This document shows positions 29,698 through 52,127 of a stretch of 64,000 nucleotides of DNA, piece after piece (position 1 is the stretch's first letter; every line of letters begins with the position of its first letter). The translations under genes were made by a program, and so were the position numbers. The notes beneath the pieces are model-generated. The model was given only the letters and a program-made list of their open reading frames with translations. It made no database searches and was not told the DNA's origin. Where the stretch lies: sequence record OR352948.1, one strand, 5' to 3'. This stretch comes from Escherichia phage AV118.

Positions 29698-29726
29698 ATA
29701 ATAACATAACCATAGACCTTGTAAAC
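29698..29726 (-). promoter_or_regulatory. T4-early-type promoter GTTTAC-N17-TATTAT in palindromic element
   Basis: Member of repeated GATAGGTCTAT...ATAGACC family. Confidence 0.5.
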
Positions 29727-29728
29727 AA

Positions 29729-30016
29729 CTAAAAGAAACTTTTTTCGGTATTTTTTCCACTGAACCAAACAGACTTCGGGATTTTTTGTAATTTTTCAGA
29801 TTTAAGTTTCTCTTCCTGTTCTTTCTTATATACACCCTTGTCGTACTGGAGCATCTCTATGGCATTCTTTTGCAAACGATCTAAGGTAATTAAGGCTTTA
29901 GTTTTTCCTTTCAAGGAAGAGTCTTGGCGAACCTCCTCGCTATATTGCATCGTAGAACTAACCATACGATGAGCATACAGTTCTACTGCGGCTTTAATTT
30001 TTTGCATAAAATCCAT
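29729..30016 (-). CDS. hypothetical protein
   Basis: 95-aa ORF. Confidence 0.45.
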   Translation of the reverse strand: MDFMQKIKAAVELYAHRMVSSTMQYSEEVRQDSSLKGKTKALITLDRLQKNAIEMLQYDKGVYKKEQEEKLKSEKLQKIPKSVWFSGKNTEKSFF

Positions 30017-30192
30017 AACATATCCTCTTTGATTTGTACATCATTATTTTTAAATATTTCTATGCCCTCAGTAGGTTCCTGGTGTCCTTCTTTGAGGTAA
30101 GCCATATGATTATTCATCTTTATGGCTTTTGTTACCTCAGAACTTCCTATAAAGCTTATTTCAGTAAAGTAACTTCCGAGATTTCTTCCCAA
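29983..30192 (-). CDS. hypothetical protein (start uncertain)
   Basis: 69-aa ORF overlapping both neighbours; likely shorter. Confidence 0.3.
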   Translation of the reverse strand: MGRNLGSYFTEISFIGSSEVTKAIKMNNHMAYLKEGHQEPTEGIEIFKNNDVQIKEDMLWILCKKLKPQ

Positions 30193-31157
30193 CCATCTTT
30201 ATCAGTTGAAATAAAATCTGCTACATAAAGAGCCGTACGTAATGATACATTGCGAAGACGAGATACGTTAGCCTTCATCCAGGACAATGCTTTGTACGTT
30301 TCTGCATCCGTCAGGCCACGTTTCTGCATCATGTCAGTAGATAATATTACATCTTCAACTCGAACCATAATCTCTTCATTAGAGTGTACTCCAAGGTCGA
30401 GATACACTGAACGAGATACTAAAGCTTGAAGGTGTGGAGCAAGTTTCGAACCCCGTTCTAACTCTTTATCGATATCAACGTTTGTAATGAAAACGATAGT
30501 ACCTTCAAACTCAAATTCTTTATCAATACCCTTATCCTCGAGATAAGATGACGCAGTGCTCCAACAAACTTTGCGTTTATCGCCGGTATCTAATGCTGCT
30601 TTAAGAAGGTTCAAGATGTCCATATCTGAGAATACGTCAACGTCGTCGATTAAGAGAACGCTGTCTGCATCACGGTTGAGCCAAAGTTGTTCGTAAAGGC
30701 CAATACCAGAGATTTTACCATTAATGCTTTTGTATTTGATGAAACCATTATCATTAGCGTTATTAAGTGCTTTATCCAGAGAATACGTCTTACCAATACC
30801 GGCTGCACCTGAAATAATGAGTGAACGAATTTTGCCATCGATAATGCCATTCGTCATCATGTTCATTACTTTAAAGCGTTTGTTGATACGAGTTTTCATA
30901 TCTTCAGTGCTTTCAATAACTGCAACTGGTGACGTCCCAACTCCTTCCATTACGATGTCTGATTTGAAGACCCATACTCCACGTTCAGAACCATCAATCA
31001 TAACGAAAATTTTACCATCACCTAAGTGGGAACATTCAGGATTAAGCTTTGCCGGGAACCATGTCTTTGTGGCAACATAAGAACCAGAGATTTCGTTATT
31101 ACGATAGATACCTTTTTTGATTTGAACGTTGAACATTTTATTCTCCAATTTACTCAT
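30156..31157 (-). CDS. AAA+/P-loop ATPase
   Basis: 333 aa; Walker A GAAGIGKT, Walker B VLLIDDVD. Confidence 0.7.
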   Translation of the reverse strand: MSKLENKMFNVQIKKGIYRNNEISGSYVATKTWFPAKLNPECSHLGDGKIFVMIDGSERGVWVFKSDIVMEGVGTSPVAVIESTEDMKTRINKRFKVMNMMTNGIIDGKIRSLIISGAAGIGKTYSLDKALNNANDNGFIKYKSINGKISGIGLYEQLWLNRDADSVLLIDDVDVFSDMDILNLLKAALDTGDKRKVCWSTASSYLEDKGIDKEFEFEGTIVFITNVDIDKELERGSKLAPHLQALVSRSVYLDLGVHSNEEIMVRVEDVILSTDMMQKRGLTDAETYKALSWMKANVSRLRNVSLRTALYVADFISTDKDGWEEISEVTLLK

Positions 31158-31174
31158 TTCGTTTCGATAGGTCT

Positions 31175-31203
31175 ATAATAACATGTTTAAAGCAAAAGTA
31201 AAC
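31175..31203 (-). promoter_or_regulatory. T4-early-type promoter GTTTAC-N17-TATTAT
   Basis: Palindromic promoter-family element. Confidence 0.5.
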
Positions 31204-31205
31204 AA

Positions 31206-31424
31206 TTATTTGCGACGAGATTTTTTGGTAAGAGGTTGAAAGAACACTGCTTTACCGGCTGGGGTTAAGGTGACCCGTAATGCATTACCGATTCCTAAGG
31301 ATGCTTTAACTAGACCTTTAGCTTTCAGTTCACCGAATGCTTGACATTGGTCTGCATCACGAGTGTTAACCATAAGACCTTTATCACCGGCTTCACGAAT
31401 CATTTCTAACATTTTGGTTTTCAT
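31206..31424 (-). CDS. hypothetical protein
   Basis: 72 aa from ATG 31424 (MKTKMLEM...), SD AGAGGAG. Confidence 0.5.
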   Translation of the reverse strand: MKTKMLEMIREAGDKGLMVNTRDADQCQAFGELKAKGLVKASLGIGNALRVTLTPAGKAVFFQPLTKKSRRK

Positions 31425-31452
31425 TTTGTTCTCCTCTTGTTTTGATAGGTCT

Positions 31453-31481
31453 ATAATAACATATCCTAAAAGCATGTACAC
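31453..31481 (-). promoter_or_regulatory. T4-early-type promoter (GTGTAC-N17-TATTAT)
   Basis: Palindromic promoter-family element, one -35 mismatch. Confidence 0.4.
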
Positions 31482-31529
31482 TACTTTTTAAAAATATTTT
31501 AACCCCCTAAAGGGACCCGAAGGCCCTTA

Positions 31530-32519
31530 TCATTTATAGTATGAATTGTGGTTTTCTAAGTAGACTTGTTCAAGGAAATCATCCCAGAAACTCATATCTA
31601 CTTTTTGTTGCATACCGTTCTTAGCGGCTTGTTCCGATGCTTGTTCAACTTGGTCAACGATATCTTCTAGGAATTCTTGTACAGTTTTAAACGTATGTTT
31701 ACCAAGCTTAACATCGAGAATAAATGGAGCATCCTGAAGTGGGTAAACCAGGTCGCCGGTTTTGTAAATTTCCAATAATTGAAGTCCACCACGACATGCA
31801 TGACTCAATGCTTTCCAGTCAATACCTTCGTTGGCTTCAGCCTTACGAGCACGTTCACCATAGTTCTCTTCCAGTTTAACCAGGATGGCATTGAACTCTT
31901 TGTTAGTTAACGTATCTTGGAATTTACGGTCCAACAGACTATAAAATGTTTGCTTACCTGTTTTCTCGTTTTCGGTTTCAACCCATGAAGCAAATTCACC
32001 TACAGGCAGAACATTCTTCATATGTGATAAACGAATTACTGCACCATTATCAAAGTATTGTCCCCATTCATTAGAACGTTTAAGGGCTTGACGAAGAACA
32101 GCCAGTCGAGAACCCTTGACACCGTATTTAGAAGCTTGCTTACGGACATACCCTAAATAAGATTTCATGTTAGTAGTATAGAAACGAGACCTGTTATCTT
32201 GAATATACTTCCATACATCAGGCAAATCAGATTTAACTACTAGACTTTGTGGAGTGTGAAGCATATCTAATGCGACGGTTTCACCATCCGCAGCTAGTTT
32301 AAAGAAATATTTGAGACTGTACAACTCATGGTCCACGTCGTCTTTTGTGTTCTTAGAAGATGTGTTATTCGTGTTCTTGCTCATGTGTTCTTTAACGTTA
32401 CCGGTCAAAATATCACGAGCATGAGGGACATAAATTTCTTTAAAATCGATGTCAGATTCAGGAGTAGACGTTCCATAAAGGTGGCTGCCAAAGTAGCCTT
32501 TCATAATTGTTTTCATCAT
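31530..32519 (-). CDS. nucleotidyltransferase-fold (Pol-beta-like) protein
   Basis: 329 aa; N-terminal GSHLYGTSTPESDIDF matches hG[GS]x9-13DhD NTase motif. Confidence 0.6.
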   Translation of the reverse strand: MMKTIMKGYFGSHLYGTSTPESDIDFKEIYVPHARDILTGNVKEHMSKNTNNTSSKNTKDDVDHELYSLKYFFKLAADGETVALDMLHTPQSLVVKSDLPDVWKYIQDNRSRFYTTNMKSYLGYVRKQASKYGVKGSRLAVLRQALKRSNEWGQYFDNGAVIRLSHMKNVLPVGEFASWVETENEKTGKQTFYSLLDRKFQDTLTNKEFNAILVKLEENYGERARKAEANEGIDWKALSHACRGGLQLLEIYKTGDLVYPLQDAPFILDVKLGKHTFKTVQEFLEDIVDQVEQASEQAAKNGMQQKVDMSFWDDFLEQVYLENHNSYYK

Positions 32520-32989
32520 TTAGCCTTATATTCAAGAGTAGGACAGACTTTTTCTTTACGAGCTTTAAGGTATTCGCCTATTAATGATTTCTTACGTTCA
32601 ATAGGCTCAAGTCCATTTTTAATTCGTTCTTGGTTTTGTGCAATGAGCTCAATTTCTTTATAATATTTTCTGTCGTTATATTTGTCTAACAACCAAGACG
32701 GACCAATTACCAACCCGGTAGCAATAAAAGCCATGACTGCTACCATTAAAATGCCTACACCAATTGAAGCTGGAACTAATGTCCATAGACTGCTAAAAAC
32801 AAAGAATTTAGTTAAAATTTCCTGGCCAATGATTGTGACTGCTGCTAAAATAGCAAATCCAATAATTGAAACGGCCAATACCGGGATTAACGTTTTCCAA
32901 AAATAAGCACACAACGTTTTCGGCCGATTCCATGTACTATTGAACGCGGCATAAATTTTAAAATGCCAAGAGTTTTCATTGATAATCAT
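32516..32989 (-). CDS. integral membrane protein
   Basis: 157 aa; at least three hydrophobic helices. Confidence 0.55.
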   Translation of the reverse strand: MIINENSWHFKIYAAFNSTWNRPKTLCAYFWKTLIPVLAVSIIGFAILAAVTIIGQEILTKFFVFSSLWTLVPASIGVGILMVAVMAFIATGLVIGPSWLLDKYNDRKYYKEIELIAQNQERIKNGLEPIERKKSLIGEYLKARKEKVCPTLEYKAK

Positions 32990-33710: not shown

Positions 33711-33845
33711 TTTACCATACTCGTTTCAATAAGATTCACTATGCCGTTTACCATGTTATAAGTAAACATCGGATAATTGTATTGTATCACAACGTATACG
33801 ATAAGCAAAAGTTTCATTTTGTTCTCCATTTGTTTTGATAGGACT

Positions 33846-33874
33846 ACTATAACATAGTCCTATCAAGATGTAAA
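33846..33874 (-). promoter_or_regulatory. T4-early-type promoter TTTACA-N17-TATAGT inside inverted repeat GATAGGACTA/TAGTCCTATC
   Basis: Palindromic promoter-family element. Confidence 0.5.
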
Positions 33875-34081
33875 CTACCGATTATGTTTTAAATGTTGAT
33901 AAAGTTCTTCAACTTGTTTAGGGTCCAAAACAATTAGGTCATTTTCTTGGCGAAGATAAATCCATCCCTTATCTCCAGGACCATTTTTACAAAACATCAC
34001 CGCCATATCATCATCTTCAGCGCTTTCAGGTAAAAGTTCAAGTACACCGTCTTCAGATTTTCCAGTATAATCGTAAAGCAT
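33875..34081 (-). CDS. hypothetical protein
   Basis: 68 aa from ATG 34081, SD GAGGA. Confidence 0.45.
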   Translation of the reverse strand: MLYDYTGKSEDGVLELLPESAEDDDMAVMFCKNGPGDKGWIYLRQENDLIVLDPKQVEELYQHLKHNR

Positions 34082-34088: not shown

Positions 34089-34268
34089 TCACATAATCTC
34101 GTTAACATACATTTGCAATTCGGTGTGGGCGTCAGCCATCTTTTTCATAGCTCTGTTAATGTCGATGTCTCCATCTTCGCAACCATGAGCATTTTCCCAA
34201 TCAGATACCGCATTAGCGTACTCTTCAATCAAAAACATTAACTTAGAAATTTTTTCTTTACGTGACAT
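34089..34268 (-). CDS. hypothetical protein
   Basis: 59 aa from ATG 34268 (MSRKEKIS...), SD AGAGGAG. Confidence 0.45.
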   Translation of the reverse strand: MSRKEKISKLMFLIEEYANAVSDWENAHGCEDGDIDINRAMKKMADAHTELQMYVNEIM

Positions 34269-34295
34269 AACGTTCTCCTCTAGTAAGTAAGGTTT

Positions 34296-34324
34296 ACTAT
34301 AACACAACCTGAGGAGAAGTAAAC
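34296..34324 (-). promoter_or_regulatory. T4-early-type promoter GTTTAC-N17-TATAGT
   Basis: Palindromic promoter-family element. Confidence 0.5.
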
Positions 34325-34333: not shown

Positions 34334-34363
34334 CCAAAAAGCCCCGACCTTTCGGAAGGGGCT
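34334..34363 (-). terminator. intrinsic terminator hairpin + U-run
   Basis: AGCCCC...GGGGCT stem with GAAA-type loop followed by T5 on minus strand; 34-bp element identical to 49455..49488. Confidence 0.55.
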
Positions 34364-37461: not shown

Positions 37462-37920
37462 CTAGATTTTAATCACTGCTTTAGAAGCTTTTCCTGGTAG
37501 TCGTTTACTGTTAATAATAGCCATTCTACATTGAAGAGTCTTCATTTTGAATGCCGGATTTTCGCGACAAACTGTAAGTCCTAACCAAAGATTTCCGTCA
37601 GTTATTTCTAAACGGCCTGGGCGATATTCGACACCTTCGACAAAATCTTCATCAACATCCGGACGTGCCGGCATTGATAAAAATTCTGCAACTTCTTTAA
37701 CGTGATTTTTTACTTTATGAAATAATTCAAAAACGTAATTCTCATCTATTTCTCTCTGGATGGCACGATCTAAGAGATGTTGAGAATACTTGATATGAAA
37801 GCCTGGTAGTCCAAGAGACTTTGCAGCATCTTTTATACCGGCATTTATTTTGCGGAACTCCGTTTCAAAGATTCGACGGAGTTTATTACGGCGGATAAAA
37901 ACATCCGAATTGATAGTCAT
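37462..37920 (-). CDS. regB: endoribonuclease RegB
   Basis: 152 aa; sequence/size as T4 RegB, position relative to tk and e. Confidence 0.75.
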   Translation of the reverse strand: MTINSDVFIRRNKLRRIFETEFRKINAGIKDAAKSLGLPGFHIKYSQHLLDRAIQREIDENYVFELFHKVKNHVKEVAEFLSMPARPDVDEDFVEGVEYRPGRLEITDGNLWLGLTVCRENPAFKMKTLQCRMAIINSKRLPGKASKAVIKI

Positions 37921-37948
37921 TTTGATTTCTCCTCTAGTTGACAGGTCT

Positions 37949-37977
37949 ATAGTAACACAACTAGAGGAGAAGTAAAC
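37949..37977 (-). promoter_or_regulatory. T4-early-type promoter GTTTAC-N17-TACTAT
   Basis: Palindromic promoter-family element. Confidence 0.5.
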
Positions 37978-39045: not shown

Positions 39046-39354
39046 TCAGTTAGAAAATAAATTTATCCAAGTTTTTTCTTTAATCAAAAATGGGTCGGAA
39101 TTAAACGCCATTAAACTTTGAGTGATTAATCCCTTAAATGGCCCATCAATAAATTCCATTTTGAAATGCGGAATACTAGTCATCAACCGTGCATTAGGAG
39201 CAGTACAAAGAACCTGCTGCCCTGCGAACGGTCCTTTAGTCAAACGGTATCGTTTAGGTTTAAAATGGTAAATCTCGTAATTTTCTACAAGAGCCATTTT
39301 ATTGCATACTGGGCTGTTATAACAATATTCAAAAACTTCAATAGTGGTCATCAT
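39046..39354 (-). CDS. hypothetical protein
   Basis: 102-aa ORF. Confidence 0.5.
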   Translation of the reverse strand: MMTTIEVFEYCYNSPVCNKMALVENYEIYHFKPKRYRLTKGPFAGQQVLCTAPNARLMTSIPHFKMEFIDGPFKGLITQSLMAFNSDPFLIKEKTWINLFSN

Positions 39355-39890
39355 TGCATTCCAATCACAAAAAATTGAGGACGAGCATTACCGCCGATGC
39401 AATATTTGCTTTTGCAACAGTGTTGGACTGTTTTAATATGTACATTGTAAATCTTATCCATATCAGGAGCTTTAATAGGCTCGTCAATTATGTACAGAAT
39501 ACGAGAAAGCGTTAATCCACGGAATTTAGAACCTTCATTGCCAATAAAACTACGAACAGAATCAGTAAATAAACGGAATCGAATATCGTCGCTAGAATAA
39601 CGAGAAAATTCTTTTTTAATGTTGCCGGCAGAAATTTTAGCATAAGCTGAAGTATTAGAAAGAACAATAACTGTTCCACCATCATACAGCCAATTAACAG
39701 CAAAATTAGTTACTGCGGTCGATTTACCTGATTGTCTGCCGCCGTCTAAACGAAGTGTACAGTACTGCTTGAGTACGTCTTCAAATGGTGGGACATAACC
39801 GTTCTTACAAATTTCTTCTACTCTAGCATCAGAATGGTGTGTAAAAGCATTCATCAGGGATAGATAAGGACCAGTTAAAAATGTTCTCAT
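39351..39890 (-). CDS. P-loop NTPase-like protein
   Basis: 179 aa; Walker A GGRQSGKST. Confidence 0.55.
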   Translation of the reverse strand: MRTFLTGPYLSLMNAFTHHSDARVEEICKNGYVPPFEDVLKQYCTLRLDGGRQSGKSTAVTNFAVNWLYDGGTVIVLSNTSAYAKISAGNIKKEFSRYSSDDIRFRLFTDSVRSFIGNEGSKFRGLTLSRILYIIDEPIKAPDMDKIYNVHIKTVQHCCKSKYCIGGNARPQFFVIGMQ

Positions 39891-39972
39891 TTAGTTTCTC
39901 TTTTAGGTTGGGCCATTCCGTGGCGCATGAATTGTCCATTTCTGTATTTACCCCTCCAAGTAATTATGAATA

Positions 39973-40001
39973 TACTATCACAATTCTAGGAGAAAGTAAA
40001 C
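39973..40001 (-). promoter_or_regulatory. T4-early-type promoter (GTTTAC + TAnnnT)
   Basis: Promoter-family element upstream of internal-protein gene. Confidence 0.4.
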
Positions 40002-40003: not shown

Positions 40004-40306
40004 TTATTTACCTTTAATTACTTTAGCTGCTTCGATAGCCGCTTGCTGAAGGTCATCCATAGACATACCAAATTTAGAAGCAAAGTTATCAATTTTCTTT
40101 TCGACAGCATTCAAAGGCTTGGCCTGTTTACCTTCATTAGCGCCAGGAAGAGCGAGAATACGCTCTTTGTCAATATAAAGGCTTACAAGTTTCTTACGGT
40201 CTTTATCGGACAAATCATGAAATGAATGGGCCTTTTTATTTATAGCGGCTTCTAATTTACCTGCACTCACTCGCGCTTCAGTAATAAATTCTTGATATGT
40301 TTTCAT
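40004..40306 (-). CDS. capsid internal protein with capsid-targeting sequence (IPII/IPIII-like)
   Basis: 100 aa; N-terminal CTS MKTYQEFITEA. Confidence 0.8.
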   Translation of the reverse strand: MKTYQEFITEARVSAGKLEAAINKKAHSFHDLSDKDRKKLVSLYIDKERILALPGANEGKQAKPLNAVEKKIDNFASKFGMSMDDLQQAAIEAAKVIKGK

Positions 40307-40336
40307 TTTTGTTTCCTTGTTTGTTTTGATAGAGTA

Positions 40337-40366
40337 ATTATACCATATTAATACTTAAGCGTAAAC
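40337..40366 (-). promoter_or_regulatory. T4-early-type promoter (GTTTAC-N18-TATAAT)
   Basis: Promoter-family element. Confidence 0.45.
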
Positions 40367-40636: not shown

Positions 40637-41050
40637 TTAGTAAATTGATTTACCATAGTATTTGTACCAAGTCGGACGTTGAGCAATTTTTTCATCTAAG
40701 CGTGCTTGACTTATCGCAATGGACGCTTCAGACGGGACGTAATTATTACGAAATTCTATAGGAATGTCGGAAATATCCTGGACAGTCGTGTCCTTGATTT
40801 TGAAACCACGTTTCAAGCATTCAGCGATTAGTTCGATTTGACGTAAACGTAAAAATTCGAGTTTGTCGTAAAAGAATGTTACGTGACCTGTGCCTAAGAT
40901 AAATGTTGGAGAGATTTTAAAATCCTTTACACGTTTACCGTTTTGAACATGTTTACGGACTGCACCAAATACGCGTGGTAATTCACGATACTCAGCCATA
41001 AGATGTTGGTCGGTCAGTTCAGAAACAAGTGTTAAATTGATACGGGTCAT
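40637..41050 (-). CDS. denV: endonuclease V (pyrimidine dimer DNA glycosylase)
   Basis: 138 aa from ATG 41050 ([12 protein letters not shown]...), SD GGAGGAAA; sequence matches T4 DenV. Confidence 0.9.
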
Positions 41051-41077
41051 AATTTCCTCCAAGTAGTTGATGAATGT

Positions 41078-41107
41078 ATAGTATCAAAGTCCTTGGAGGA
41101 AGTAAAC
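41078..41107 (-). promoter_or_regulatory. T4-early-type promoter (GTTTAC + TACTAT)
   Basis: Promoter-family element. Confidence 0.45.
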
Positions 41108-41877: not shown

Positions 41878-41907
41878 TACCTCCCACGTTTATAGGAGGT
41901 ATTTATT
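41878..41907 (-). promoter_or_regulatory. hairpin sequestering the endolysin SD, with late-promoter-like AATAAATA at its 5' side
   Basis: TACCTCC-loop-GGGAGGTA inverted repeat; SD GGAGG in 3' arm 5 nt before ATG. Confidence 0.5.
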
Positions 41908-41909
41908 AC

Positions 41910-42368
41910 TTATAGGAGGGTAGTGAGCACCTTATATAATGATTTGCCCATTACATATTCCCATTGAGAAGGTTTAATTAAAGCGAATGCATCAAATTCA
42001 GGAATCTGACGTCCGTCTGGGAATGTATGATAGGAATTACAAACACTGTTTCTGAATTGCTCGTGCTCTACAGGGATGGTATATAGGAACAGATGAATAT
42101 TCTTATTATCTGAGTAATGATGTTCACCTAGGTCTTTCAGGAAGGCAGGGTCATATTGTGTAAACCCAGTTTCTTCTTCGCATTCACGAATAGCGGCTTC
42201 AATAGGAGATTCGCCAGGTTCGACATGGCCTTTAGGAATATCCCACCGATGAGCTAAAGAACCTTTAGGACGAGAACCAGTTACACGCCCCATGAATAAT
42301 TCTTTATCTTCGGTAAGGAAAATAATACCGGCTGATAGTTCTTTCACTTTATTTTTCTTACTCATCAT
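41910..42368 (-). CDS. nudE: Nudix hydrolase
   Basis: 152 aa; Nudix box GHVEPGESPIEAAIRECEEETG. Confidence 0.9.
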   Translation of the reverse strand: MMSKKNKVKELSAGIIFLTEDKELFMGRVTGSRPKGSLAHRWDIPKGHVEPGESPIEAAIRECEEETGFTQYDPAFLKDLGEHHYSDNKNIHLFLYTIPVEHEQFRNSVCNSYHTFPDGRQIPEFDAFALIKPSQWEYVMGKSLYKVLTTLL

Positions 42369-43757: not shown

Positions 43758-44063
43758 TTATTTTCCTCGGCATTCTTTAATGAAATTTTCTAGATTGGTA
43801 GATTCAATAGCTTTTTTACGAGCTTCTGCATGTTCTTCTTCGGACAATTTACATTTATAATTGACCCAGACATTATGGTCGAAACTAGTCGTGGCATATA
43901 ATAACAATGCTCCAACGAATAGCAAAAACGGTGATAAGAATACAAAACCAGGAACACCATCCATACTGTAAGCCTTTTGTAATACTGCAACAGAAAGAGC
44001 TGCGTAAAAAGGTGATGCAAATATTGTTAAAAGACCAATTCGGTTGGTTTCGCCTAATTTCAT
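43758..44063 (-). CDS. membrane protein with C-terminal ENFIKECR motif (FIKECR family)
   Basis: 101 aa; two hydrophobic helices; C-terminus ...LENFIKECRGK. Confidence 0.6.
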   Translation of the reverse strand: MKLGETNRIGLLTIFASPFYAALSVAVLQKAYSMDGVPGFVFLSPFLLFVGALLLYATTSFDHNVWVNYKCKLSEEEHAEARKKAIESTNLENFIKECRGK

Positions 44064-44091
44064 AATATTCTCCTCATGTTTTAATAGGACT

Positions 44092-44121
44092 ACTATAACA
44101 TAATCCTATAATTATGTAAAC
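44092..44121 (-). promoter_or_regulatory. T4-early-type promoter in palindromic element
   Basis: GTTTAC + TATAGT inside GATAGGACTA-type inverted repeat. Confidence 0.45.
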
Positions 44122-45115: not shown

Positions 45116-45367
45116 TTAAATTTCGCGACATGCGATATCATATTCATCCCAGAGGTCATCATGTGAAGCCTCTACCAATGGAACGATTGTACCGTTTATG
45201 TCTTCATTATAAGGGCAAATTGTACAGTGCGCATCTTCGAATCGGATGCCTTTGTGTTCAGATTTTTTATAACGCATATCGAATATCTTTGCAAACTTTT
45301 CACGAGTAATGGTTTTAGCAACCACTTTGGTTCCAATACTTTCATAATAAATCATCGTGGACTCCAT
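45116..45367 (-). CDS. hypothetical protein (C-terminus ...DIACREI)
   Basis: 83-aa ORF. Confidence 0.5.
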   Translation of the reverse strand: MESTMIYYESIGTKVVAKTITREKFAKIFDMRYKKSEHKGIRFEDAHCTICPYNEDINGTIVPLVEASHDDLWDEYDIACREI

Positions 45368-45383
45368 TTAATTTGATAGGACT

Positions 45384-45413
45384 ACTATAACATAGCCCTA
45401 TCTTGTTGTAAAC
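45384..45413 (-). promoter_or_regulatory. T4-early-type promoter in palindromic element
   Basis: GTTTAC + TATAGT inside GATAGGACTA-type inverted repeat. Confidence 0.45.
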
Positions 45414-48155: not shown

Positions 48156-48196
48156 ATTATTACCTTTCAATTGGTGGTTTATTATCCAATGAGAGC

Positions 48197-48226
48197 ATTA
48201 TACTCTGCTCTCAAGAGTTTGTAAAT
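48197..48226 (-). promoter_or_regulatory. sigma70/T4-early-type promoter TTTACA-N17-TATAAT
   Basis: 49-bp element identical to 19506..19554. Confidence 0.6.
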
Positions 48227-48453
48227 TATTTTTTAATCAAATTGACATAAAACTCGGCGTCTTCCGGGTGCATGCCTTCACAGTATTCTTCAACCATGAA
48301 CTTCTTAACGGCTTCATAAGGACCACTCAGATTAAGCTCAGTTGTCCAGAACTTGGAATCTTGGACTGAATCGATACGAACTTCAGGGTGACGGTTGCGA
48401 ATAACTTCTTCAGTGTATTCATAATCAACGACATCAATACTAACTGTAGCCAT
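48226..48453 (-). CDS. hypothetical acidic protein
   Basis: 75-aa ORF. Confidence 0.5.
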   Translation of the reverse strand: MATVSIDVVDYEYTEEVIRNRHPEVRIDSVQDSKFWTTELNLSGPYEAVKKFMVEEYCEGMHPEDAEFYVNLIKK

Positions 48454-48520
48454 TTTGTTTCTCCTCTGTAGTTGATAAGTCTATAGTATCATAGACCATA
48501 GTTGTTGTACATCATTATTT

Positions 48521-48826
48521 TTAATTTTTCCAACTTAACAACTTGTAGTGTCCTTCATTAATACGTGGTTTATCCCAAGAAATACTAATATATGATTCAC
48601 TGTCAATAGAAGTCGTTTGGTTTTTCTCTACCGTAAGACCTTCACTTTCCAGCCATTCAATAGTATTTGCGCATAAATCAGAAGAACACCTCATTGGAAA
48701 CCGGCAAGATTTTTCACCTTTAGCTGCAGTGTTATACATCTTTTCTAAAATACGCTTTTGCACGTTTTTAAAAATAGTTTCAGCAGATTCTTCAGATTTT
48801 TTATTCAGTTCAGTGTAAAGACTCAT
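48521..48826 (-). CDS. hypothetical protein
   Basis: 101-aa ORF. Confidence 0.5.
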   Translation of the reverse strand: MSLYTELNKKSEESAETIFKNVQKRILEKMYNTAAKGEKSCRFPMRCSSDLCANTIEWLESEGLTVEKNQTTSIDSESYISISWDKPRINEGHYKLLSWKN

Positions 48827-48854
48827 AACATTTTCCTCTATGGTTGATAAGTCT

Positions 48855-48883
48855 ATAGTATCATGTCCTTAGAAGAAGTAAAC
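48855..48883 (-). promoter_or_regulatory. T4-early-type promoter GTTTAC-N17-TACTAT
   Basis: Promoter-family element. Confidence 0.5.
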
Positions 48884-48949
48884 ATCTTTATGAAATATTT
48901 TTATGCCCTAGATACCAAAAGGCCCCAACCATAAGGAAGGGGCATTCTA

Positions 48950-49414
48950 TTATTTAATTTGTTTAGCAGACCAGATACGGTCTTTAATAAGTTTTTGGAT
49001 ATCTTCAACATACTCAAGGCTATGAGCGTGAGGATTATCTTTGAAGCTATGTGCTCGTGCCAGTTTCTGTCCTTCTGTTTTGATTACTAAAAGCTCTTTA
49101 AGAATTGCTTCATACTTAGAAATAATTCCTTTGGCGATATTTTTTTCTTGAGCTGCTTTAGGGTCCACTTTTGGCGCAGGTGCTTTACCTGTAGCTTTCT
49201 GGAACAATTCACCTGATGCAGCTAGGCTTTTAAAAACTCGGCTAACAGTATTAGCATTAGTAAAACCTTCGGCTTTAAAATCTCTAATAAAACGGAAACG
49301 TTCTTCATCAGAGGCGTCTTTGTAAGAATATTTACCTGCTTGAATTGCTGCAATCGCAGCGGCTTTTACATCTGAACTAGATTGTTCAGTCAAAAATTCA
49401 GCGTATGATTTCAT
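48950..49414 (-). CDS. capsid internal protein with capsid-targeting sequence
   Basis: 154 aa; N-terminal CTS MKSYAEFLTEQ. Confidence 0.7.
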   Translation of the reverse strand: MKSYAEFLTEQSSSDVKAAAIAAIQAGKYSYKDASDEERFRFIRDFKAEGFTNANTVSRVFKSLAASGELFQKATGKAPAPKVDPKAAQEKNIAKGIISKYEAILKELLVIKTEGQKLARAHSFKDNPHAHSLEYVEDIQKLIKDRIWSAKQIK

Positions 49415-49457
49415 GTTGCTTTTCCTAAGTTAATTAACTTATCTATTTATTATTATG

Positions 49458-49487
49458 CCAAAAAGCCCCGACCTTTCGGAAGGGGCT
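49458..49487 (-). terminator. intrinsic terminator hairpin + U-run
   Basis: Same 34-bp sequence as at 34331..34364. Confidence 0.55.
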
Positions 49488-49798
49488 AAGCCTTGCGGCA
49501 ACCTTGTCGGGGTTCCACCTGCTAAGGCAAGTGTTTGTACGAAACGCCGGGATTCGAACCCGGTTATTAAGCAGTTGACGCTACTCAATATTTTTAAAAG
49601 GCCATATCTCGACCATATCCGAACGTTCCGTCAAAAACGCTACTCGGCTTACGGCAAAGATATTTCCTCGAATCGATAATTCGGTGCGCCGTTTCTGCTG
49701 TGATATAAGGGGGCATTAACAAAACATAAAGATTTATTAATGCCAGTCCTTACTCAGGGAACATCAGTCCGACGACTTACCGGTAGCGACCCGGCTTC

Positions 49799-50143
49799 TT
49801 ATTTTGACATATCATCAATTTGCTCTCGACGCCGACGCCATAGATTAATCGCTTCATAAACACATTCTGCGTTTGGTATATGACGGCAATAATATAATGA
49901 TTCGCGTTTCTGGAATCGATGTTGCAATTGGATTTCGTTTAAAAGGTCTTTACGGTCAAAGTATTCAAAACTAGTTAACCTGGAACGGTTTTTAATGAAC
50001 TTCCAATGACCAAATTCATTTTGAACATAGATGTAATCTGCATGTTGGTATAACAAATTAATCAATCGGTCTGAAATAACTGTATCATGTTCGTTAAAAT
50101 AAAACGTTAAATCATGAACTACTAAGTAAACATTACCTTTCAT
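49799..50143 (-). CDS. hypothetical protein
   Basis: 114 aa from ATG 50143 with SD GAGGAAA; ORF-track extension would overlap tRNA-Arg. Confidence 0.5.
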   Translation of the reverse strand: MKGNVYLVVHDLTFYFNEHDTVISDRLINLLYQHADYIYVQNEFGHWKFIKNRSRLTSFEYFDRKDLLNEIQLQHRFQKRESLYYCRHIPNAECVYEAINLWRRRREQIDDMSK

Positions 50144-50161
50144 ATTTTCCTCACTTAAAAT

Positions 50162-50238
<77 letters not shown>

Positions 50239-50338
50239 ATGATGCGGCTTTGGGTGTTTCAGTGTTACTCGTTTGTAGGTTCTACTTTTAACCCTTATTC
50301 GAACAACTTACCTACCTAAGAGCGTACTCACCGCGAAT

Positions 50339-50413
50339 TGGTGGCCCTGGCTGGTTTCGATCCAGCTACCTATCAGTTATGAGCTGACAGCTCTCCCATT
50401 GAGCTACAGGGCC
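50339..50413 (-). tRNA. tRNA with anticodon CAU (elongator Met or Ile2/lysidine)
   Basis: Manual cloverleaf: acceptor GGCCCTG/CAGGGCC, D-stem GCTC/GAGC, anticodon loop CTCATAA, T-stem GCTGG/CCAGC, encoded CCA. Confidence 0.75.
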
Positions 50414-50509
50414 TAAATAACTTTCTATTATGAAAGGCACTTGAGGGAGCACCTTTGGTAATAGAGGGTAGATTAATAATAACACATAATTCTTAAAGCA
50501 AATTACGTT

Positions 50510-50800
50510 TTACCGTACCATATTAATGTAGTTATATTCAATGCAACGTAATTTCAAAGGGTTCTTGAAAATATCATATTCAAGAGGGCCTTTTTCTGTT
50601 TCAATAAAGAAATCAAAGTTAACTGTGTTAAATTTAACGTCTTCACAGAGTAATTTAACTTGTGAAGATGAACGGTCGATATAAACCTTTTCAACCTCAA
50701 AGATAGTCAGAATACCGTAGTCATTAACCAGTGCTTTAGCTGCACGTTGGTCGCTTTCATATCCGTTCTCAATGGACGATACTTTAGCATAAAGAATCAT
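50510..50800 (-). CDS. hypothetical protein
   Basis: 96-aa ORF. Confidence 0.5.
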   Translation of the reverse strand: MILYAKVSSIENGYESDQRAAKALVNDYGILTIFEVEKVYIDRSSSQVKLLCEDVKFNTVNFDFFIETEKGPLEYDIFKNPLKLRCIEYNYINMVR

Positions 50801-51159
50801 GAATGTTCCACCATTTCAAAGGTATGAGCATCAACAATATGATACCAGTCAAAATTTTCTTCCGCGTTTTTATAAATTTCGCGAAGAGCTTCAACAGTTT
50901 TTCCTGTAGCAACAAGATCGTCAATACCACCAAGAGGATAACAGTAATAACCAGCAAACAGAAGGAAATTAATAGTTTCTGTAGGTTCTGGATGCAGAAC
51001 ACCGTTATCATCTACCACTTCAAAGAAAGTGTAAGAAGGAGTACAAGTTTTAATCCAAGCCCATGCTTGGGCTGCTGAATCAAATGGACTGCGTATCAAA
51101 CGACAATCAGGGTCTTTAGAAGGATTTGCTTCAAAATCCGCATATACGTGATATTTCAT
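50797..51159 (-). CDS. hypothetical protein
   Basis: 120 aa from ATG 51159, SD AGGTGA. Confidence 0.5.
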   Translation of the reverse strand: MKYHVYADFEANPSKDPDCRLIRSPFDSAAQAWAWIKTCTPSYTFFEVVDDNGVLHPEPTETINFLLFAGYYCYPLGGIDDLVATGKTVEALREIYKNAEENFDWYHIVDAHTFEMVEHS

Positions 51160-51160
51160 T

Positions 51161-51367
51161 TTACTCACCTTTTGCAATTTTATCCATAACGATAGCGATT
51201 AAGCCGATTAGAAATGCTACTACCAATGAGATAGAATTTTCTGTTGTTGTCAGTAGTCCACAAATGAATCCTACAAACATCGAAAAACTAAAAGCCATTG
51301 AAGCAATTACTACAGCAACATTACGAATCAGTTCAGCGCGTTTCATTTTATTTCTCCATTTACTCAT
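51161..51367 (-). CDS. small membrane protein
   Basis: 68 aa; two hydrophobic helices. Confidence 0.5.
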   Translation of the reverse strand: MSKWRNKMKRAELIRNVAVVIASMAFSFSMFVGFICGLLTTTENSISLVVAFLIGLIAIVMDKIAKGE

Positions 51368-51383
51368 TTGTTTTGATAGGACT

Positions 51384-51413
51384 ACTATAACATATCCCTA
51401 TAGGCTTGTATAC
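51384..51413 (-). promoter_or_regulatory. T4-early-type promoter-like palindromic element (weaker -35)
   Basis: GATAGGACTACTATAACAT element; -35-like GTATAC. Confidence 0.35.
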
Positions 51414-51415
51414 CT

Positions 51416-51679
51416 TTATTTCAAATATATTGCGTATTTTTTATAGCCACCAGGCTCGTGTCGAAGACCTTTATCATTCGCAAAACGTTGAATGTTATTG
51501 AACTGATTTTCATCAAGTTCGGATGTGTCAAATACGAAAAAGTTTCGTTTGTTACCAAGCGTGATATGCGGAGTTAAGTCAATGTTATACAAATTAAGAA
51601 TATCAGCAATAACCTGATTGACCGCTTTGTTAATTTTCACACCAGATGATTCTGAGATGAATTCGTTGAAAGTTTTCAT
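51416..51679 (-). CDS. capsid internal protein with capsid-targeting sequence
   Basis: 87 aa from ATG 51679; N-terminal CTS MKTFNEFISES. Confidence 0.7.
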   Translation of the reverse strand: MKTFNEFISESSGVKINKAVNQVIADILNLYNIDLTPHITLGNKRNFFVFDTSELDENQFNNIQRFANDKGLRHEPGGYKKYAIYLK

Positions 51680-51711
51680 TTTAGGTTCCATTTGGTTGTT
51701 TTGATAGGACT

Positions 51712-51741
51712 ACTATAACATAGTCCTATCGTGTTGTAAAT
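51712..51741 (-). promoter_or_regulatory. T4-early-type promoter-like palindromic element
   Basis: GATAGGACTA/TAGTCCTATC inverted repeat with TATAGT and ATTTAC. Confidence 0.4.
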
Positions 51742-52052
51742 TATTTTATGCCTTTAGAAGAAATGGTATTTTGGCGTTTGACCCCTGTTTGTGAAAAATC
51801 GTGGTTATCGATTTGGTCGACTCGCATAACACCAAATGCAGATTTAATTTTAGCCTTTGAACCTTTTTTAATACTAATTACCATATAAGTATCATTTTTC
51901 TTATATTCGAAATTTGTTACTTCAACGCCTTGATTAGAAATTGACTTAATAATAGCATTAGCGTATTCATCATCTAACGGACCGGTGGTGTTAATAATAA
52001 AATTTTTATCGGCTTTAGTAGCTTCAGCGATAAACTCTTGATAAGTTTTCAT
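51741..52052 (-). CDS. capsid internal protein with capsid-targeting sequence (IPI-position)
   Basis: 103 aa; N-terminal CTS MKTYQEFIAEA; adjacent to 57B as T4 ipI. Confidence 0.75.
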   Translation of the reverse strand: MKTYQEFIAEATKADKNFIINTTGPLDDEYANAIIKSISNQGVEVTNFEYKKNDTYMVISIKKGSKAKIKSAFGVMRVDQIDNHDFSQTGVKRQNTISSKGIK

Positions 52053-52097
52053 TTTATTTCCTTGAGGTTGTTTATTTGATAGGATGATAGTAACACA

Positions 52098-52127
52098 CCA
52101 TCATCCTTATGTAAACTGTTTTGTGAA
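52098..52127 (-). promoter_or_regulatory. T4-early-type promoter (GTTTAC + TACTAT)
   Basis: Palindromic promoter-family element. Confidence 0.45.

What the first reader, a model, noticed from the sequence alone, without database searches (positions are those of the whole stretch)
29698..52127. Family of palindromic early-promoter elements (GTTTAC-N17/18-TAnnnT inside an inverted repeat)
At least 15 intergenic sites on the transcribed strand carry a T4-early-like -35 GTTTAC and a TATAGT/TACTAT/TATTAT -10, with the -10 embedded between 10-nt inverted repeats such as GATAGGACTA/TAGTCCTATC. Transcripts starting here lack the 5' arm, whereas read-through transcripts could fold the hairpin, so the element may double as a processing or termination site. 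The density defines an array of single-gene early cassettes typical of accessory regions.
Basis: partly seen in the sequence, partly recalled or inferred. Interest (0 to 1): 0.55.

Follow-up and report, generated by a model that had tools for sequence, protein, structure and literature searches.

The report
Early promoters hidden inside RNA hairpins
In this T4-like phage, and in T4 itself, about half of the early promoters carry, between their -35 and -10 boxes, a short sequence that can pair with the RNA just downstream, so only transcripts arriving from an upstream gene can fold a hairpin, which in many cases covers the next gene's ribosome-binding site.

Summary
The window is an RB69-like (Mosigvirus) T4-type coliphage. 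Positions 29.6-52.1 kb on the minus strand hold 17 T4-type early promoter cassettes (GTTTAC, 17/18 nt, TGn-TAnnnT, conserved AGNCCTATCAA start region, SD, ATG).

About 12 of them have a significant stem straddling the -10, but it is not one palindrome:
- **Class A (7 sites):** the spacer pairs with the discriminator/+1 region (GATAGGACTA/TAGTCCTATC and variants).
- **Class B (5 sites, including regB and denV):** the spacer pairs with the Shine-Dalgarno region.
- **No significant stem:** about 5 sites, two of them with only a weak class A stem.

Across 264 distinct promoters (window, T4, IMG/VR contigs):
- 48% have such a duplex, against 7% with shuffled spacers.
- Cognate arms beat non-cognate ones (z = -17.5).
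- G·U is tolerated more than A·C.
- regB and denV orthologues keep SD masking with different helix sequences.
- Spacer arms and upstream terminators are anticorrelated.

Best reading: spacer-encoded, isoform-specific RNA hairpins acting on read-through transcripts. Class B gates translation; the role of class A is uncertain. They sit in PeSL-like recombination cassettes and are not terminators. This is a new variant of known kinds (PeSL; the T4 e/soc/I-TevI hairpins).

The parts
52050..52116 (-). Early promoter cassette, class A. -35 52111-52116, -10 52087-52092, inferred TSS ~52080, ATG 52052. Arms AAGGATGATGGTGT (52095-52108) and TACTATCATCCTA (52080-52092). Downstream gene is IP-like (MKTYQEFI..., 103 aa).
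   Evidence: z = -3.9; duplex -17.3
51677..51741 (-). Early promoter cassette, class A. The -35 is ATTTAC. Exact arms GATAGGACTA (51721-51730) and TAGTCCTATC (51703-51712), with the -10 TATAGT in the loop. Downstream gene is IP-like, 87 aa.
   Evidence: (z = -5.9)
51365..51413 (-). Early promoter cassette with a -35 of GTATAC. It has the conserved TAGTCCTATC start region, but the spacer arm is degraded (weak stem or none). Downstream gene is a trna.4 homologue.
   Evidence: (z = +0.5)
48824..48883 (-). Early promoter cassette, class B. Spacer TTCTTCTA pairs with the SD region TAGAGGAA (one G.U). A terminator-like hairpin lies upstream, giving a PeSL-type layout.
   Evidence: (z = -2.2)
48451..48512 (-). 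Early promoter cassette with a -35 of ATGTAC and a weak class A stem, GGTCTAT/ATAGAC(T). Downstream gene is a frd.3 homologue.
   Evidence: (z = -1.0)
48168..48225 (-). Early-type promoter: ATTTAC, 17 nt spacer, TATAAT, no TGn. Class A stem TGAGAGC/GCTCTCA around the -10. TTG start at 48170.
   Evidence: duplex -14.3
45353..45413 (-). Early promoter cassette, class A. Arms GATAGGGCTA/TAGTCCTATC with one G.U wobble in the sense orientation.
   Evidence: (z = -3.3)
44061..44121 (-). Early promoter cassette, class A. Arms TATAGGATTA/TAGTCCTATT with one U.G wobble.
   Evidence: (z = -2.3)
41048..41107 (-). denV early promoter, class B. Spacer TTCCTCCAAG (just after the -35) pairs with CTTGGAGGAA, which contains the SD.
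   Evidence: (z = -5.2)
40304..40366 (-). Early promoter cassette with no significant stem. Downstream gene is ipII-like.
   Evidence: (z = -0.5)
39937..40001 (-). Early promoter cassette, class B with a nested inner helix. Outer helix TTTCTCC.../...GGAGGGG(TAA) covers the SD. Inner helix is AATTGTGA/TCATAATT. Downstream is a fragment matching the vs.8 N-terminus.
   Evidence: (z = -4.5)
37918..37977 (-). regB early promoter, class B. A 14-bp helix, TTCTCCTCTAGTTG (37958-37971) with CAACTAGAGGAGAA (37927-37940), covers the SD GGAG.
   Evidence: z = -4.9; duplex -23.4
34266..34324 (-). Early promoter cassette, class B. TTCTCCTC pairs with GAGGAGAA, plus an inner helix AGGTT/AACCT. An upstream terminator at 34342-34357 gives a PeSL-type layout. 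Downstream gene is a mobD.2a homologue.
   Evidence: (z = -1.5)
33815..33875 (-). TTGATAGGACTA (33854-33865) pairs with TAGTCCTATCAA (33835-33846). Loop is TGTTATAG. Downstream gene is a mobD.2 homologue.
   Evidence: (z = -5.0)
31422..31481 (-). Early promoter cassette with a -35 of GTGTAC and no significant stem. A terminator-like hairpin lies upstream at 31501-31517.
   Evidence: (z = -0.15)
31134..31203 (-). Early promoter cassette with no stem. Downstream gene is nrdC.10. The orthologous T4 promoter also has no stem.
   Evidence: (z = +0.9)
29668..29726 (-). nrdC.8 early promoter, class A. Arms AGGTCTAT(GG)/(TT)ATAGACCT. The orthologous promoters in T4-type and other lineages are class B.
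   Evidence: (z = -1.9)
20443..20503 (-). It has a two-helix stem: TCCTC/GAGGA (SD) plus TAGAT/ATCTA.
   Evidence: (z = -3.1)
17371..17427 (-). Early promoter of a seg-like GIY-YIG endonuclease gene, outside the interval, class C. The discriminator CTCCTT (-6..-1) pairs with the SD AAGGAG. A transcript starting at the inferred +1 lacks the 5' arm.
   Evidence: (z = -5.0)

Best explanation
These are T4-type early (host sigma-70) promoter cassettes of an RB69-like phage. They lie in the nrdC-tk-regB-denV-e-tRNA-ipI hyperplastic region.

The 17-18 nt between the -35 and the -10 is largely free of RNA-polymerase sequence constraints. It has been used to encode the 5' arm of an RNA hairpin. That arm is upstream of the start site, so it is present only in RNA made from an upstream promoter that reads through the cassette.

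- **Class B.** The arm pairs with the Shine-Dalgarno region of the downstream gene. In the rarer class C the discriminator itself does this. Read-through RNA is therefore closed to ribosomes and to RegB, which cuts single-stranded GGAG. The short transcript from the gene's own early promoter is open. The gene is then translated essentially only while its own immediate-early promoter fires.
- **Class A.** This gives a compact hairpin that begins about 12-13 nt after the upstream stop codon and leaves the SD as accessible as in the short transcript. It most likely insulates the ribosome-binding site or protects an RNA end. This step is the least certain.

At the DNA level, the shared promoter sequence also serves as short homology for cassette shuffling, in the manner of PeSL elements.

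**Shown:** the sequence architecture, the statistics, the covariation, and conservation across orthologues and in T4.
**Inferred:** the start sites, the existence of read-through RNA, and every functional consequence.
For: 1. **Frequency.** In 264 distinct early promoters (window, T4 NC_000866, 120 IMG/VR loci), the spacer/downstream duplex is <= -10 kcal/mol in 48.5%, against 6.6% with shuffled spacers. It is <= -12 in 40% against 1.4%. T4 itself has 16 of 32.
2. **Covariation among paralogues.** In 148 representatives below 80% identity, cognate duplexes average -9.73 against -6.43 +/- 0.19 for permuted partners (z = -17.5, 0 of 20,000 permutations). Discriminator AG[N]CCT against spacer AGG[N']CT gives 36 Watson-Crick pairs, 3 G.U and 1 mismatch out of 40. 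A fixed-register count on all 147 promoters with 18-nt spacers gives a covariation score of 0.225, against 0.175 +/- 0.009 for shuffles (0 of 500) and 0.10-0.18 for slid controls.
3. **Orthologues.** The regB promoter keeps a spacer-SD helix in 5 of 6 lineages, each with a different sequence. The denV SD is masked in most lineages examined, by at least five different class B helices or by class C. For mobD.2, the window and T4 differ by three double compensatory changes.
4. **Strand.** Interior G.U against A.C is 27:5 for class A and 11:2 for class B. It is 21:6 after removing positions fixed by TGn and the -10. This fits pairing in sense-strand RNA.
5. **Predicted SD accessibility.** Class B: 0.07 in read-through RNA, 0.30 with a shuffled spacer, 0.53 in the gene's own transcript. 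Class A: 0.52, 0.43 (p = 0.002) and 0.50.
6. **Context.** The upstream stop codon lies within 20 nt of the -35 in 92% of class A, 63% of class B and 29% of stem-less promoters. A terminator-like hairpin upstream is found in 3%, 16% and 35% respectively (p = 6e-7). Spacer arms therefore occur where read-through is expected.
7. **Start site.** The T4 GenBank label Pe133295 matches a start at the 7th nt after the -10.
8. **Precedent.** The same logic is established for the T4 late genes e, soc, 49 and I-TevI (PMC3014915, PMC2988022). The e hairpin is present in this window.
Against: - There is no transcript, structure-probing or translation data for this phage. Start sites and read-through are inferred.
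- Pooled over all promoters, predicted SD accessibility in read-through RNA does not differ from shuffled or swapped spacers. The effect is confined to the class B subset.
- About half of early promoters have no such stem.
- nrdC.8 is class B in T4 but class A here, so the class is not a fixed property of a gene.
- Class A has no demonstrated consequence, and its predicted insulating effect is small (+0.09).
- The G.U/A.C asymmetry is modest once constrained positions are removed (p = 0.03 against the compositional baseline), and related sequences are not independent.
- Covariation within short inverted repeats could in part come from templated (quasi-palindrome) mutation, which is known in T4.
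- The IMG/VR loci were fetched with a pattern that required the AGNCCTATC start region, which biases the composition of that set. The T4 and window sets are unbiased.
Confidence: 0.6

Rival explanations
1. DNA-level recombination cassettes only. The elements are PeSL-like repeated promoter modules whose similarity promotes modular gene shuffling. On this view the inverted repeats are by-products, either inherited with the cassette or created and kept perfect by templated quasi-palindrome mutation or cruciform processing, with no RNA function.
For: - Homology blocks between the window and JS09 end inside the elements (9 of 22 block ends, p = 4e-6). The trend against RB69 is weaker (3 of 14).
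- PeSL elements are documented recombination junctions in RB49/phi1, T4/PST and KVP40/nt-1 (PMC2839356, PMC4122927).
- The loop between the arms of the T4 cd.3 promoter was once reported in inverted orientation.
Against: - G.U is tolerated but A.C is not, in the sense orientation.
- In class B the arms are 25-35 nt apart and the 3' arm is the SD.
- denV and regB keep SD masking through different helices, and even different architectures, across lineages.
- Spacer arms are anticorrelated with upstream terminators. A pure DNA-repeat model predicts none of these.
- The recombination role is compatible with the RNA role rather than an alternative to it.
Confidence: 0.15
2. RNA processing or termination element. 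In read-through RNA the hairpin would terminate transcription or mark an endonuclease site. Alternatively it would act as a protective stem-loop, at the 3' end of the upstream cistron after RegB or RNase E cleavage, or at the 5' end of the downstream cistron.
For: - Class A hairpins leave the SD free.
- They start about 12-13 nt after the upstream stop codon.
- They are followed by an A-rich single strand and a RegB-type GGAGAAnAAAA site. A cut there would leave the hairpin near a new 3' end.
Against: - No U-run follows any of the stems, and the terminator scan did not report them.
- The stems are 8-14 bp, short for RNase III.
- In class B the GGAG is paired, and RegB is inhibited by secondary structure (PMC1702504).
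- No cleavage data are available.
Confidence: 0.15
3. Palindromic operator. A dimeric phage or host protein would bind the inverted repeat over the -10 to shut off early promoters. The mechanism of early-promoter shut-off in T4 is unknown.
For: - The repeat is centred on the -10.
- GATAGGACTA/TAGTCCTATC recurs at four sites in the window.
- Reviews state that early shut-off is unexplained (PMC2988021, PMC3014915).
Against: - Arm sequences differ widely between sites while staying complementary: AGGTCT/AGACCT, AGGGCT/AGCCCT, GATGAGGTA/TACCTCATC, ATATTATGAGA/TCTCATAATAT.
- Several registers and arm spacings occur, and half of the stems reach the SD.
- About half of early promoters have no repeat.
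- G.U wobbles are tolerated.
Confidence: 0.04

Closest known systems
PeSL (promoter-early stem-loop) cassettes of T4-type phages (Arbiol et al. 2010, PMC2839356; Comeau et al. 2014, PMC4122927)
   Same: - Repeated intergenic modules with an A/T-rich region, a strong sigma-70-type early promoter, an SD and a start codon.
- Concentrated in hyperplastic regions next to small ORFs of unknown function.
- Junctions of insertions, deletions and replacements between close relatives.
- Three or four of the window's elements also have the upstream terminator (34324, 48883, 31481).
   Different: - In PeSLs the stem-loop is a terminator placed upstream of the -35.
- Here the 5' arm lies inside the -35/-10 spacer, and the 3' arm is the discriminator/+1 region or the SD. 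The stem has no U-run.
- Spacer arms are anticorrelated with upstream terminators.
- The PeSL papers do not describe stems around the -10.
RBS-sequestering hairpins with an internal promoter in T4 (e, soc, 49, I-TevI, segB; mobE of Aeh1)
   Same: - The promoter sits inside or at the edge of the hairpin, so long transcripts mask the SD and/or AUG while the promoter-proximal transcript lacks the 5' arm and is translated.
- Classes B and C here have exactly this geometry.
- The e hairpin itself is present in the window.
   Different: - The known cases use late (or middle) promoters and delay translation to late times. Reviews state they are all late genes (PMC2988022).
- Here the promoter is an early sigma-70 promoter, and the 5' arm is packed into its spacer.
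- The predicted effect is the mirror image: translation restricted to the immediate-early window.
- It recurs at about a quarter of early promoters rather than at single genes.
- Class A does not mask the SD.
T4 early promoter consensus (Liebig and Ruger 1989; logos for RB69 in Nolan et al. 2006, PMC1524935)
   Same: - -35 GTTTAC, TGn-extended -10, A-rich UP region.
- Conserved bases around +1, with C preferred at -3..-1. This fits AGNCCT-A(+1)TCAA.
   Different: The consensus descriptions treat the spacer as non-conserved. They do not report its complementarity to the leader or SD, at least in the papers I could read.
Isoform-specific translation from alternative promoters in bacteria (for example sigma-B against sigma-A transcripts in Bacillus subtilis, PMC8208050)
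   Same: A longer mRNA isoform folds a structure that hides the RBS. A shorter isoform from an internal promoter is translated.
   Different: This is a different organism, sigma factor and sequence family. There is no homology; only the logic is shared.

Membership tests
T4-type early promoter | -35 hexamer GTTTAC (or one mismatch), 17-18 nt spacer, -10 TAnnnT | tested here: met
21 exact pattern hits against 3.9 expected.
T4-type early promoter | TGn extended -10 and A/T-rich UP region upstream of the -35 | tested here: met
   TGn is present in 16 of 17 elements, all but 48225. A-rich tracts upstream can be read directly.
T4-type early promoter | Active immediately after infection with unmodified host RNA polymerase; start about 7 nt after the -10 | not testable with these tools
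   The only support is indirect. The T4 label Pe133295 fits a start at the 7th nt after the -10.
PeSL cassette | Early promoter plus SD plus start codon as a repeated intergenic module in a hyperplastic region | tested here: met
   Neighbouring genes are nrdC.x, mobD.x, vs.x, IP genes and RB69 ORFans.
PeSL cassette | Stable stem-loop (terminator) immediately upstream of the promoter | tested here: not met
   Present at only 3-4 of 19 window elements. In the large set, an upstream terminator is found in 3% of class A, 16% of class B and 35% of stem-less promoters.
PeSL cassette | Indel and replacement junctions between close relatives fall in the elements | tested here: met
   JS09: 9 of 22 block ends lie inside elements that cover 6.4% of the region (p = 4e-6). 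RB69: 3 of 14 (p = 0.056).
PeSL cassette | Recombination between neighbouring elements yields mini-circles | not testable with these tools
   Needs PCR or sequencing of phage DNA.
RBS-sequestering hairpin with internal promoter (T4 e/soc/49/I-TevI type) | 3' arm includes the SD and/or start codon | tested here: met
   Met for class B (37977, 41107, 40001, 34324, 48883, 20503) and class C (17427). Not met for the seven class A sites.
RBS-sequestering hairpin with internal promoter (T4 e/soc/49/I-TevI type) | Start site lies 3' of the 5' arm, so the promoter-proximal transcript cannot fold | tested here: met
   True by geometry: the 5' arm is in the spacer, or in the discriminator for class C. 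The start site itself is inferred.
RBS-sequestering hairpin with internal promoter (T4 e/soc/49/I-TevI type) | Longer transcripts from upstream promoters exist and are poorly translated | not testable with these tools
   Indirect support only. The upstream stop codon abuts the -35, and a terminator is rarely present. Predicted SD accessibility is 0.07 against 0.53.
RBS-sequestering hairpin with internal promoter (T4 e/soc/49/I-TevI type) | Internal promoter is of the late (or middle) class | tested here: not met
   The promoters here are early sigma-70 type. This is why I call it a variant rather than a member.
Intrinsic terminator | G+C-rich stem followed directly by a U-run | tested here: not met
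   The stems are followed by ATCAAAAC or AATnAAAATG. None was reported by the terminator scan.
Palindromic protein operator | Constant half-site sequence at constant spacing | tested here: not met
   Arms covary between sites, with several registers and spacings.
Any curated RNA family (Rfam 15) | Match at gathering score | tested here: not met
   The only matches are two tRNAs, at 50165-50413.

The most novel reading that the evidence does not exclude
The -35/-10 spacer of T-even early promoters is a second coding layer. It is a 17-18 nt, freely evolvable RNA switch that decides, gene by gene in tandem early arrays, whether read-through mRNA is translatable. Class A would leave the ribosome-binding site insulated and open. 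Classes B and C would mask it and make it RegB-resistant. Swapping a spacer, as seen for nrdC.8, would re-programme a gene's temporal class. The class B genes (regB, denV, alc, dexA, modB in T4) would be confined to an immediate-early burst. This would help explain the abrupt decline of early protein synthesis, which current reviews call incompletely understood.
Probability: 0.4. Interest if true: 0.75.

Novelty: new variant of a known kind. Interest (0 to 1): 0.58.

Why it matters
T4 is one of the best-studied gene-expression systems, yet its early promoter spacers are treated as featureless. If the spacer systematically encodes an arm that acts on read-through RNA, several things follow.

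1. The temporal class of an early gene would depend on which transcript isoform is translatable, not only on which promoter fires.
2. Part of the rapid drop in early protein synthesis would be explained without a repressor, alongside RegB.
3. Potentially toxic enzymes (RegB, DenV, Alc, DexA, a seg endonuclease) would be limited to a short burst.
4. Annotation of T4-like genomes could predict expression windows from sequence.
5. Compact promoter and translational-gate modules of about 60 nt would be useful parts for phage engineering.

It also refines the PeSL concept. Upstream terminators and spacer-encoded arms appear to be alternative ways of dealing with transcription coming from the neighbouring cassette.

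Tried and rejected
- **RNAalifold on regB promoters.** RNAalifold on a MAFFT alignment of eight regB promoters gave no consensus structure. The arms shift register between lineages, so I compared helices by eye and by script instead.
- **Pooled SD accessibility.** Across all 264 promoters, SD accessibility in read-through RNA (0.35) was no different from swapped (0.37) or shuffled spacers (0.36). The idea that all early promoters mask their SD is rejected. Only the class B subset does.
- **One palindrome family.** Searching GATAGGACTA with two mismatches is not enriched in the window (60 hits against 49 expected). The signal is complementarity, not a shared word.
- **Intrinsic terminator reading.** Rejected.
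- **Operator reading.** Rejected on covariation.
- **Translational coupling by a terminating ribosome melting the stem.** The 5' arm starts a median 12-13 nt after the first base of the stop codon. From general knowledge of the ribosome footprint, that is just beyond the reach of a terminating ribosome. I consider coupling unlikely, but this is inference.
- **Rfam.** Nothing but tRNAs.
- **Prior art.** I found no description of spacer-embedded arms in the PeSL papers, the 2010 T4 reviews, Nolan 2006 or Durand 2006. The 2003 T4 genome review was not available. Liebig and Ruger 1989 is also not in the library I searched. An earlier mention therefore cannot be excluded.

Full report
**What the window is.** The interval 29,000-53,000 matches Mosigvirus (RB69-like) coliphages at 95-98% identity: JS09, SF, PTE-Eco05 and SHSML-52-1. 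Genes from about 1 to 55 kb run on the minus strand.

**Checking the observation.** GTTTAC-N16-19-TANNNT occurs 21 times against 3.9 +/- 2.2 in shuffles, 17 of them on the minus strand. Read on the minus strand, the elements are:

A-rich region - GTTTAC - 17/18 nt - TGn-TA(T/C)(A/T)(A/G)T - AG(A/T)CCTATCAA - about 10-25 nt - SD - ATG.

Adding sites with one or two -35 mismatches, and one without TGn, gives 17 elements between 29.6 and 52.1 kb. Two more lie at 20.5 and 17.4 kb.

The inverted repeat is real but heterogeneous. GATAGGACTA/TAGTCCTATC is exact at 33875 and 51741. It carries sense-strand G.U wobbles at 45413 and 44121. Sites 29726, 52116 and 48225 have other arms. At 37977, 41107, 40001, 34324 and 48883 the spacer arm pairs with the Shine-Dalgarno region instead. 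Sites 40366, 31481 and 31203 have no stem, and 51413 and 48512 have only weak ones.

The pairing is well beyond chance. Cognate duplexes average -11.6 kcal/mol, against -8.2 for non-cognate partners (permutation p = 5e-5) and -6.1 +/- 0.5 with shuffled spacers. Eleven of the 18 elements first folded have z <= -1.9 against dinucleotide shuffles, although one of them, 17427, adopts a different fold.

**Anatomy.** Nolan et al. (PMC1524935) report a C preference at -3..-1 for RB69. The T4 GenBank label Pe133295 also matches a start at the 7th nt after the -10. I therefore place +1 at the A of CCT-A-TCAA. Three architectures follow.
- **Class A:** a 5' arm in the spacer, a 3' arm covering the last base(s) of the -10 through about +3/+5, and most of the -10 in an 8-nt loop.
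- **Class B:** a 5' arm starting right after the -35, and a 3' arm covering the SD.
- **Class C (rare):** the 5' arm is the 3' half of the -10 plus the discriminator, and the 3' arm is the SD. Window site 17427, a seg-like endonuclease gene, is of this type.

In all three, a transcript started at the promoter lacks the 5' arm, so only read-through RNA can fold. None of the stems is followed by a U-run, and none was reported by the terminator scan. Rfam finds only two tRNAs.

**Generality.** A scan of IMG/VR for GTTTAC-N17/18-TANNNT-AGNCCTATC returned 120 loci from T4-like contigs. I also fetched 149 kb of T4. A uniform promoter definition gave 264 distinct elements.
- The spacer/downstream duplex is <= -10 kcal/mol in 48.5%, against 6.6% with shuffled spacers, and <= -12 in 40% against 1.4%.
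- The classes are A 67, B 61 and none 136.
- The window has 6/6/6 and T4 has 7/9/16 (A/B/none).

T4 examples of class B are regB (Pe at 62797), denV (65413), dexA (8218), nrdC.8 (53943) and alc (136336). T4 examples of class A are dmd (20612), mobD.2 (57990), 57B (73939) and cd.3 (133331). This is therefore a property of T-even early promoters, not of this phage alone.

**Covariation.** Among 148 representatives below 80% identity, cognate arms average -9.73 kcal/mol against -6.43 +/- 0.19 for permuted partners (z = -17.5, 0 of 20,000 permutations). The variable base of the discriminator AG[N]CCT is matched by AGG[N']CT in the spacer in 36 of 40 cases, with 3 G.U and 1 mismatch.

Other arm pairs differ completely: GATGAGGTA/TACCTCATC, GATAGGGTA/TACCCTATC, ATATTATGAGA/TCTCATAATAT and GGTAGG/CCTACC.

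I also counted one fixed register on all 147 promoters with 18-nt spacers, with no selection for pairing. This gives 51.2% paired cells against 47.3 +/- 0.8 in shuffles (0 of 500). The covariation score is 0.225 against 0.175 +/- 0.009 (0 of 500) and 0.10-0.18 for slid partners.

In class B the helix extends beyond the exact SD core by 2.0 pairs with the cognate partner and by 0.77 with non-cognate partners. The pairing is therefore not just a generic pyrimidine-rich spacer meeting GGAG.

**Orthologues.**
- **regB.** The helices are TTCTCCTCTAGTTG/CAACTAGAGGAGAA (window type), TTTTCCTCTTGACTG/CAGTTAAGAGGAGAA (T4 type, two G.U), TTTCTCCTCTTTATG/CATAAAGAGGAGAAA, TCTCCTGTAAG/CTTACAGGAGA, and a nested TTTCCTT + GGGCCAT form. 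Only the most distant lineage lacks a helix.
- **denV.** The SD is masked in most lineages examined. Class B helices include TTCCTCCAAG/CTTGGAGGAA, TCTCCTGTAG/CTACAGGAGA, TCTCCGTTTG/CAAACGGAGA and TCTCCTGTG/CACAGGAGA. Class C helices include ATGATGTCTTCC/GGAGGACATCAT and ATGTCCTCCTA/TAGGAGGACAT. Keeping the same outcome through different sequences and architectures is the strongest argument that masking the SD is the selected property.
- **mobD.2 (class A).** The window and T4 differ by three double compensatory changes.
- **nrdC.8.** It is class B in T4-type and other lineages, but class A in the window lineage with the same SD region. The spacer can be exchanged and the class is evolvable.

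**RNA or DNA?** Inside helices, G.U (sense orientation) outnumbers A.C by 27:5 in class A and 11:2 in class B, against a compositional baseline of 56%. After removing positions fixed by TGn or the -10, the ratio is 21:6 (p = 0.006 against 0.5; p = 0.03 against the baseline). Most of the A.C cases sit in doubtful short helices. This favours pairing in sense RNA over a DNA cruciform or antisense RNA. The support is moderate, because related sequences are not independent.

**Context.** The upstream gene's stop codon lies within 20 nt of the -35 in 92% of class A, 63% of class B and 29% of stem-less promoters (Fisher p = 6e-17 and 2e-5). A terminator-like hairpin with a T-run within 90 nt upstream is found in 3%, 16% and 35% respectively (A+B against none, p = 6e-7). 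Spacer arms therefore occur where transcription from the upstream gene must run through the promoter. Classical PeSL terminators occur where they do not. This complementary distribution is what a function on read-through RNA predicts.

**Predicted consequence.** The partition-function probability that the SD is unpaired is as follows.

| Class | Native read-through RNA | Shuffled spacer | Own transcript |
|---|---|---|---|
| B | 0.07 | 0.30 | 0.53 |
| A | 0.52 | 0.43 (p = 0.002) | 0.50 |
| No stem | 0.36 | 0.36 | 0.55 |

Class B closes the SD. Class A makes the read-through RNA resemble the short transcript around the SD.

RegB cuts single-stranded GGAG followed by an A-rich tract and is inhibited by structure (PMC1702504, PMC3014915). 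Many of these SDs are GGAGAAnAAAA. A class B stem should therefore also protect the long RNA from RegB while keeping it untranslated.

**DNA-level role.** Against JS09, 9 of 22 homology-block ends fall inside the elements, which cover 6.4% of the region (p = 4e-6). JS09 insertions are flanked by duplicated element sequence. Against RB69 the figure is 3 of 14 (p = 0.056).

**Comparison with what is known.** PeSLs place their stem-loop, a terminator, upstream of the -35. Here the stem straddles the -10. Hairpins that hide the RBS and contain a promoter are established for T4 e, soc, 49, I-TevI and segB, and for Aeh1 mobE. Reviews stress that these are all late genes (PMC2988022, PMC3014915). The e hairpin is present in this window as expected.

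The present elements combine the two: PeSL-like early cassettes with an e-type gate, whose 5' arm is packed into the promoter spacer. I found no description of this in the literature I could read. The 2003 T4 genome review and Liebig and Ruger 1989 were not available to me, so prior mention cannot be excluded.

**Verdict.** The promoter and cassette interpretation holds. The termination idea does not. The key feature, SD masking specific to read-through RNA, was missed.

Confidence by claim:
- Selected RNA-level stems in read-through transcripts: about 0.8.
- Translational gating for class B/C: about 0.6-0.7.
- Any specific role for class A: about 0.3.

Novelty: a new variant of known kinds. 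Interest: moderate to fairly high, because it holds in T4 itself and bears on how early gene expression is curtailed.

Noticed in passing
window 17371-17427 (-), gene 16570-17373: A seg-like GIY-YIG homing-endonuclease gene (267 aa) has its own early-type promoter. The discriminator CTCCTT (-6..-1) pairs with the SD AAGGAG, so the SD would be masked only in read-through RNA. T4 homing endonucleases are reported to use late or middle promoters for this trick.
   Followed up: partly
window ~41878-41912 (-): The classical lysozyme (e) translational hairpin ATACCTCC/GGAGGTAT is present, with a late-promoter-like TAAATA just upstream. It served as an in-window example of the known architecture.
   Followed up: partly
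window 50165-50238 and 50342-50413 (-); gaps 50192-50509 and 29081-29142: There are two tRNA genes. Upstream of them, and also upstream of the gene starting at 29080, are MotA-box-like middle promoters (TTGCTTTA-N12-TATTAT and GCTTTAC-N12-TATAAT) rather than early promoters.
   Followed up: no
L123 (T4 NC_000866) 133300-133313: A GenBank note says this 14-nt stretch was earlier reported as its inverted complement, and that the correction restores early promoter Pe133295. The stretch is exactly the loop between the arms GGTAGAG/CTCTACC of the cd.3 promoter hairpin. This could be a sequencing artefact or a real inversion between the arms.
   Followed up: partly
L163, L166, L169, L170 (denV loci of 345-378 kb phage contigs), about 60-85 nt upstream of the ATG: The sequence GGGTTGAC-TTCG-GTCAGCCC-TTTTTGC-TATAAT is a UUCG-tetraloop terminator. 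Its 5' arm contains the -35 TTGAC, and its 3' arm plus T-run forms the promoter spacer. This is a different way of overlaying an RNA structure on a promoter spacer.
   Followed up: no
window 39351-39939 (-): vs.8 appears split. A 36-aa ORF starting at 39939 matches the T4 vs.8 N-terminus in two frames, and is followed by the 179-aa ORF 39351-39890. The early promoter at 40001 serves the short ORF.
   Followed up: no
window 51741-52052, 51416-51679, 40004-40306 (-): Three small genes begin with the internal-protein leader MKT(Y/F)(Q/N)EFI. They lie in segments that are replaced by other IP genes in JS09 and RB69. This is the IP-locus polymorphism noted by Repoila et al. 1994, as cited in PMC4122927.
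   Followed up: partly
L134, L135, L138 (regB promoters): The leader carries a tandem CTTACA-CTTACA. The spacer arm TGTAAG can therefore pair either with the discriminator copy (class A-like) or with the SD-proximal copy (class B). These are possible alternative structures.
   Followed up: no
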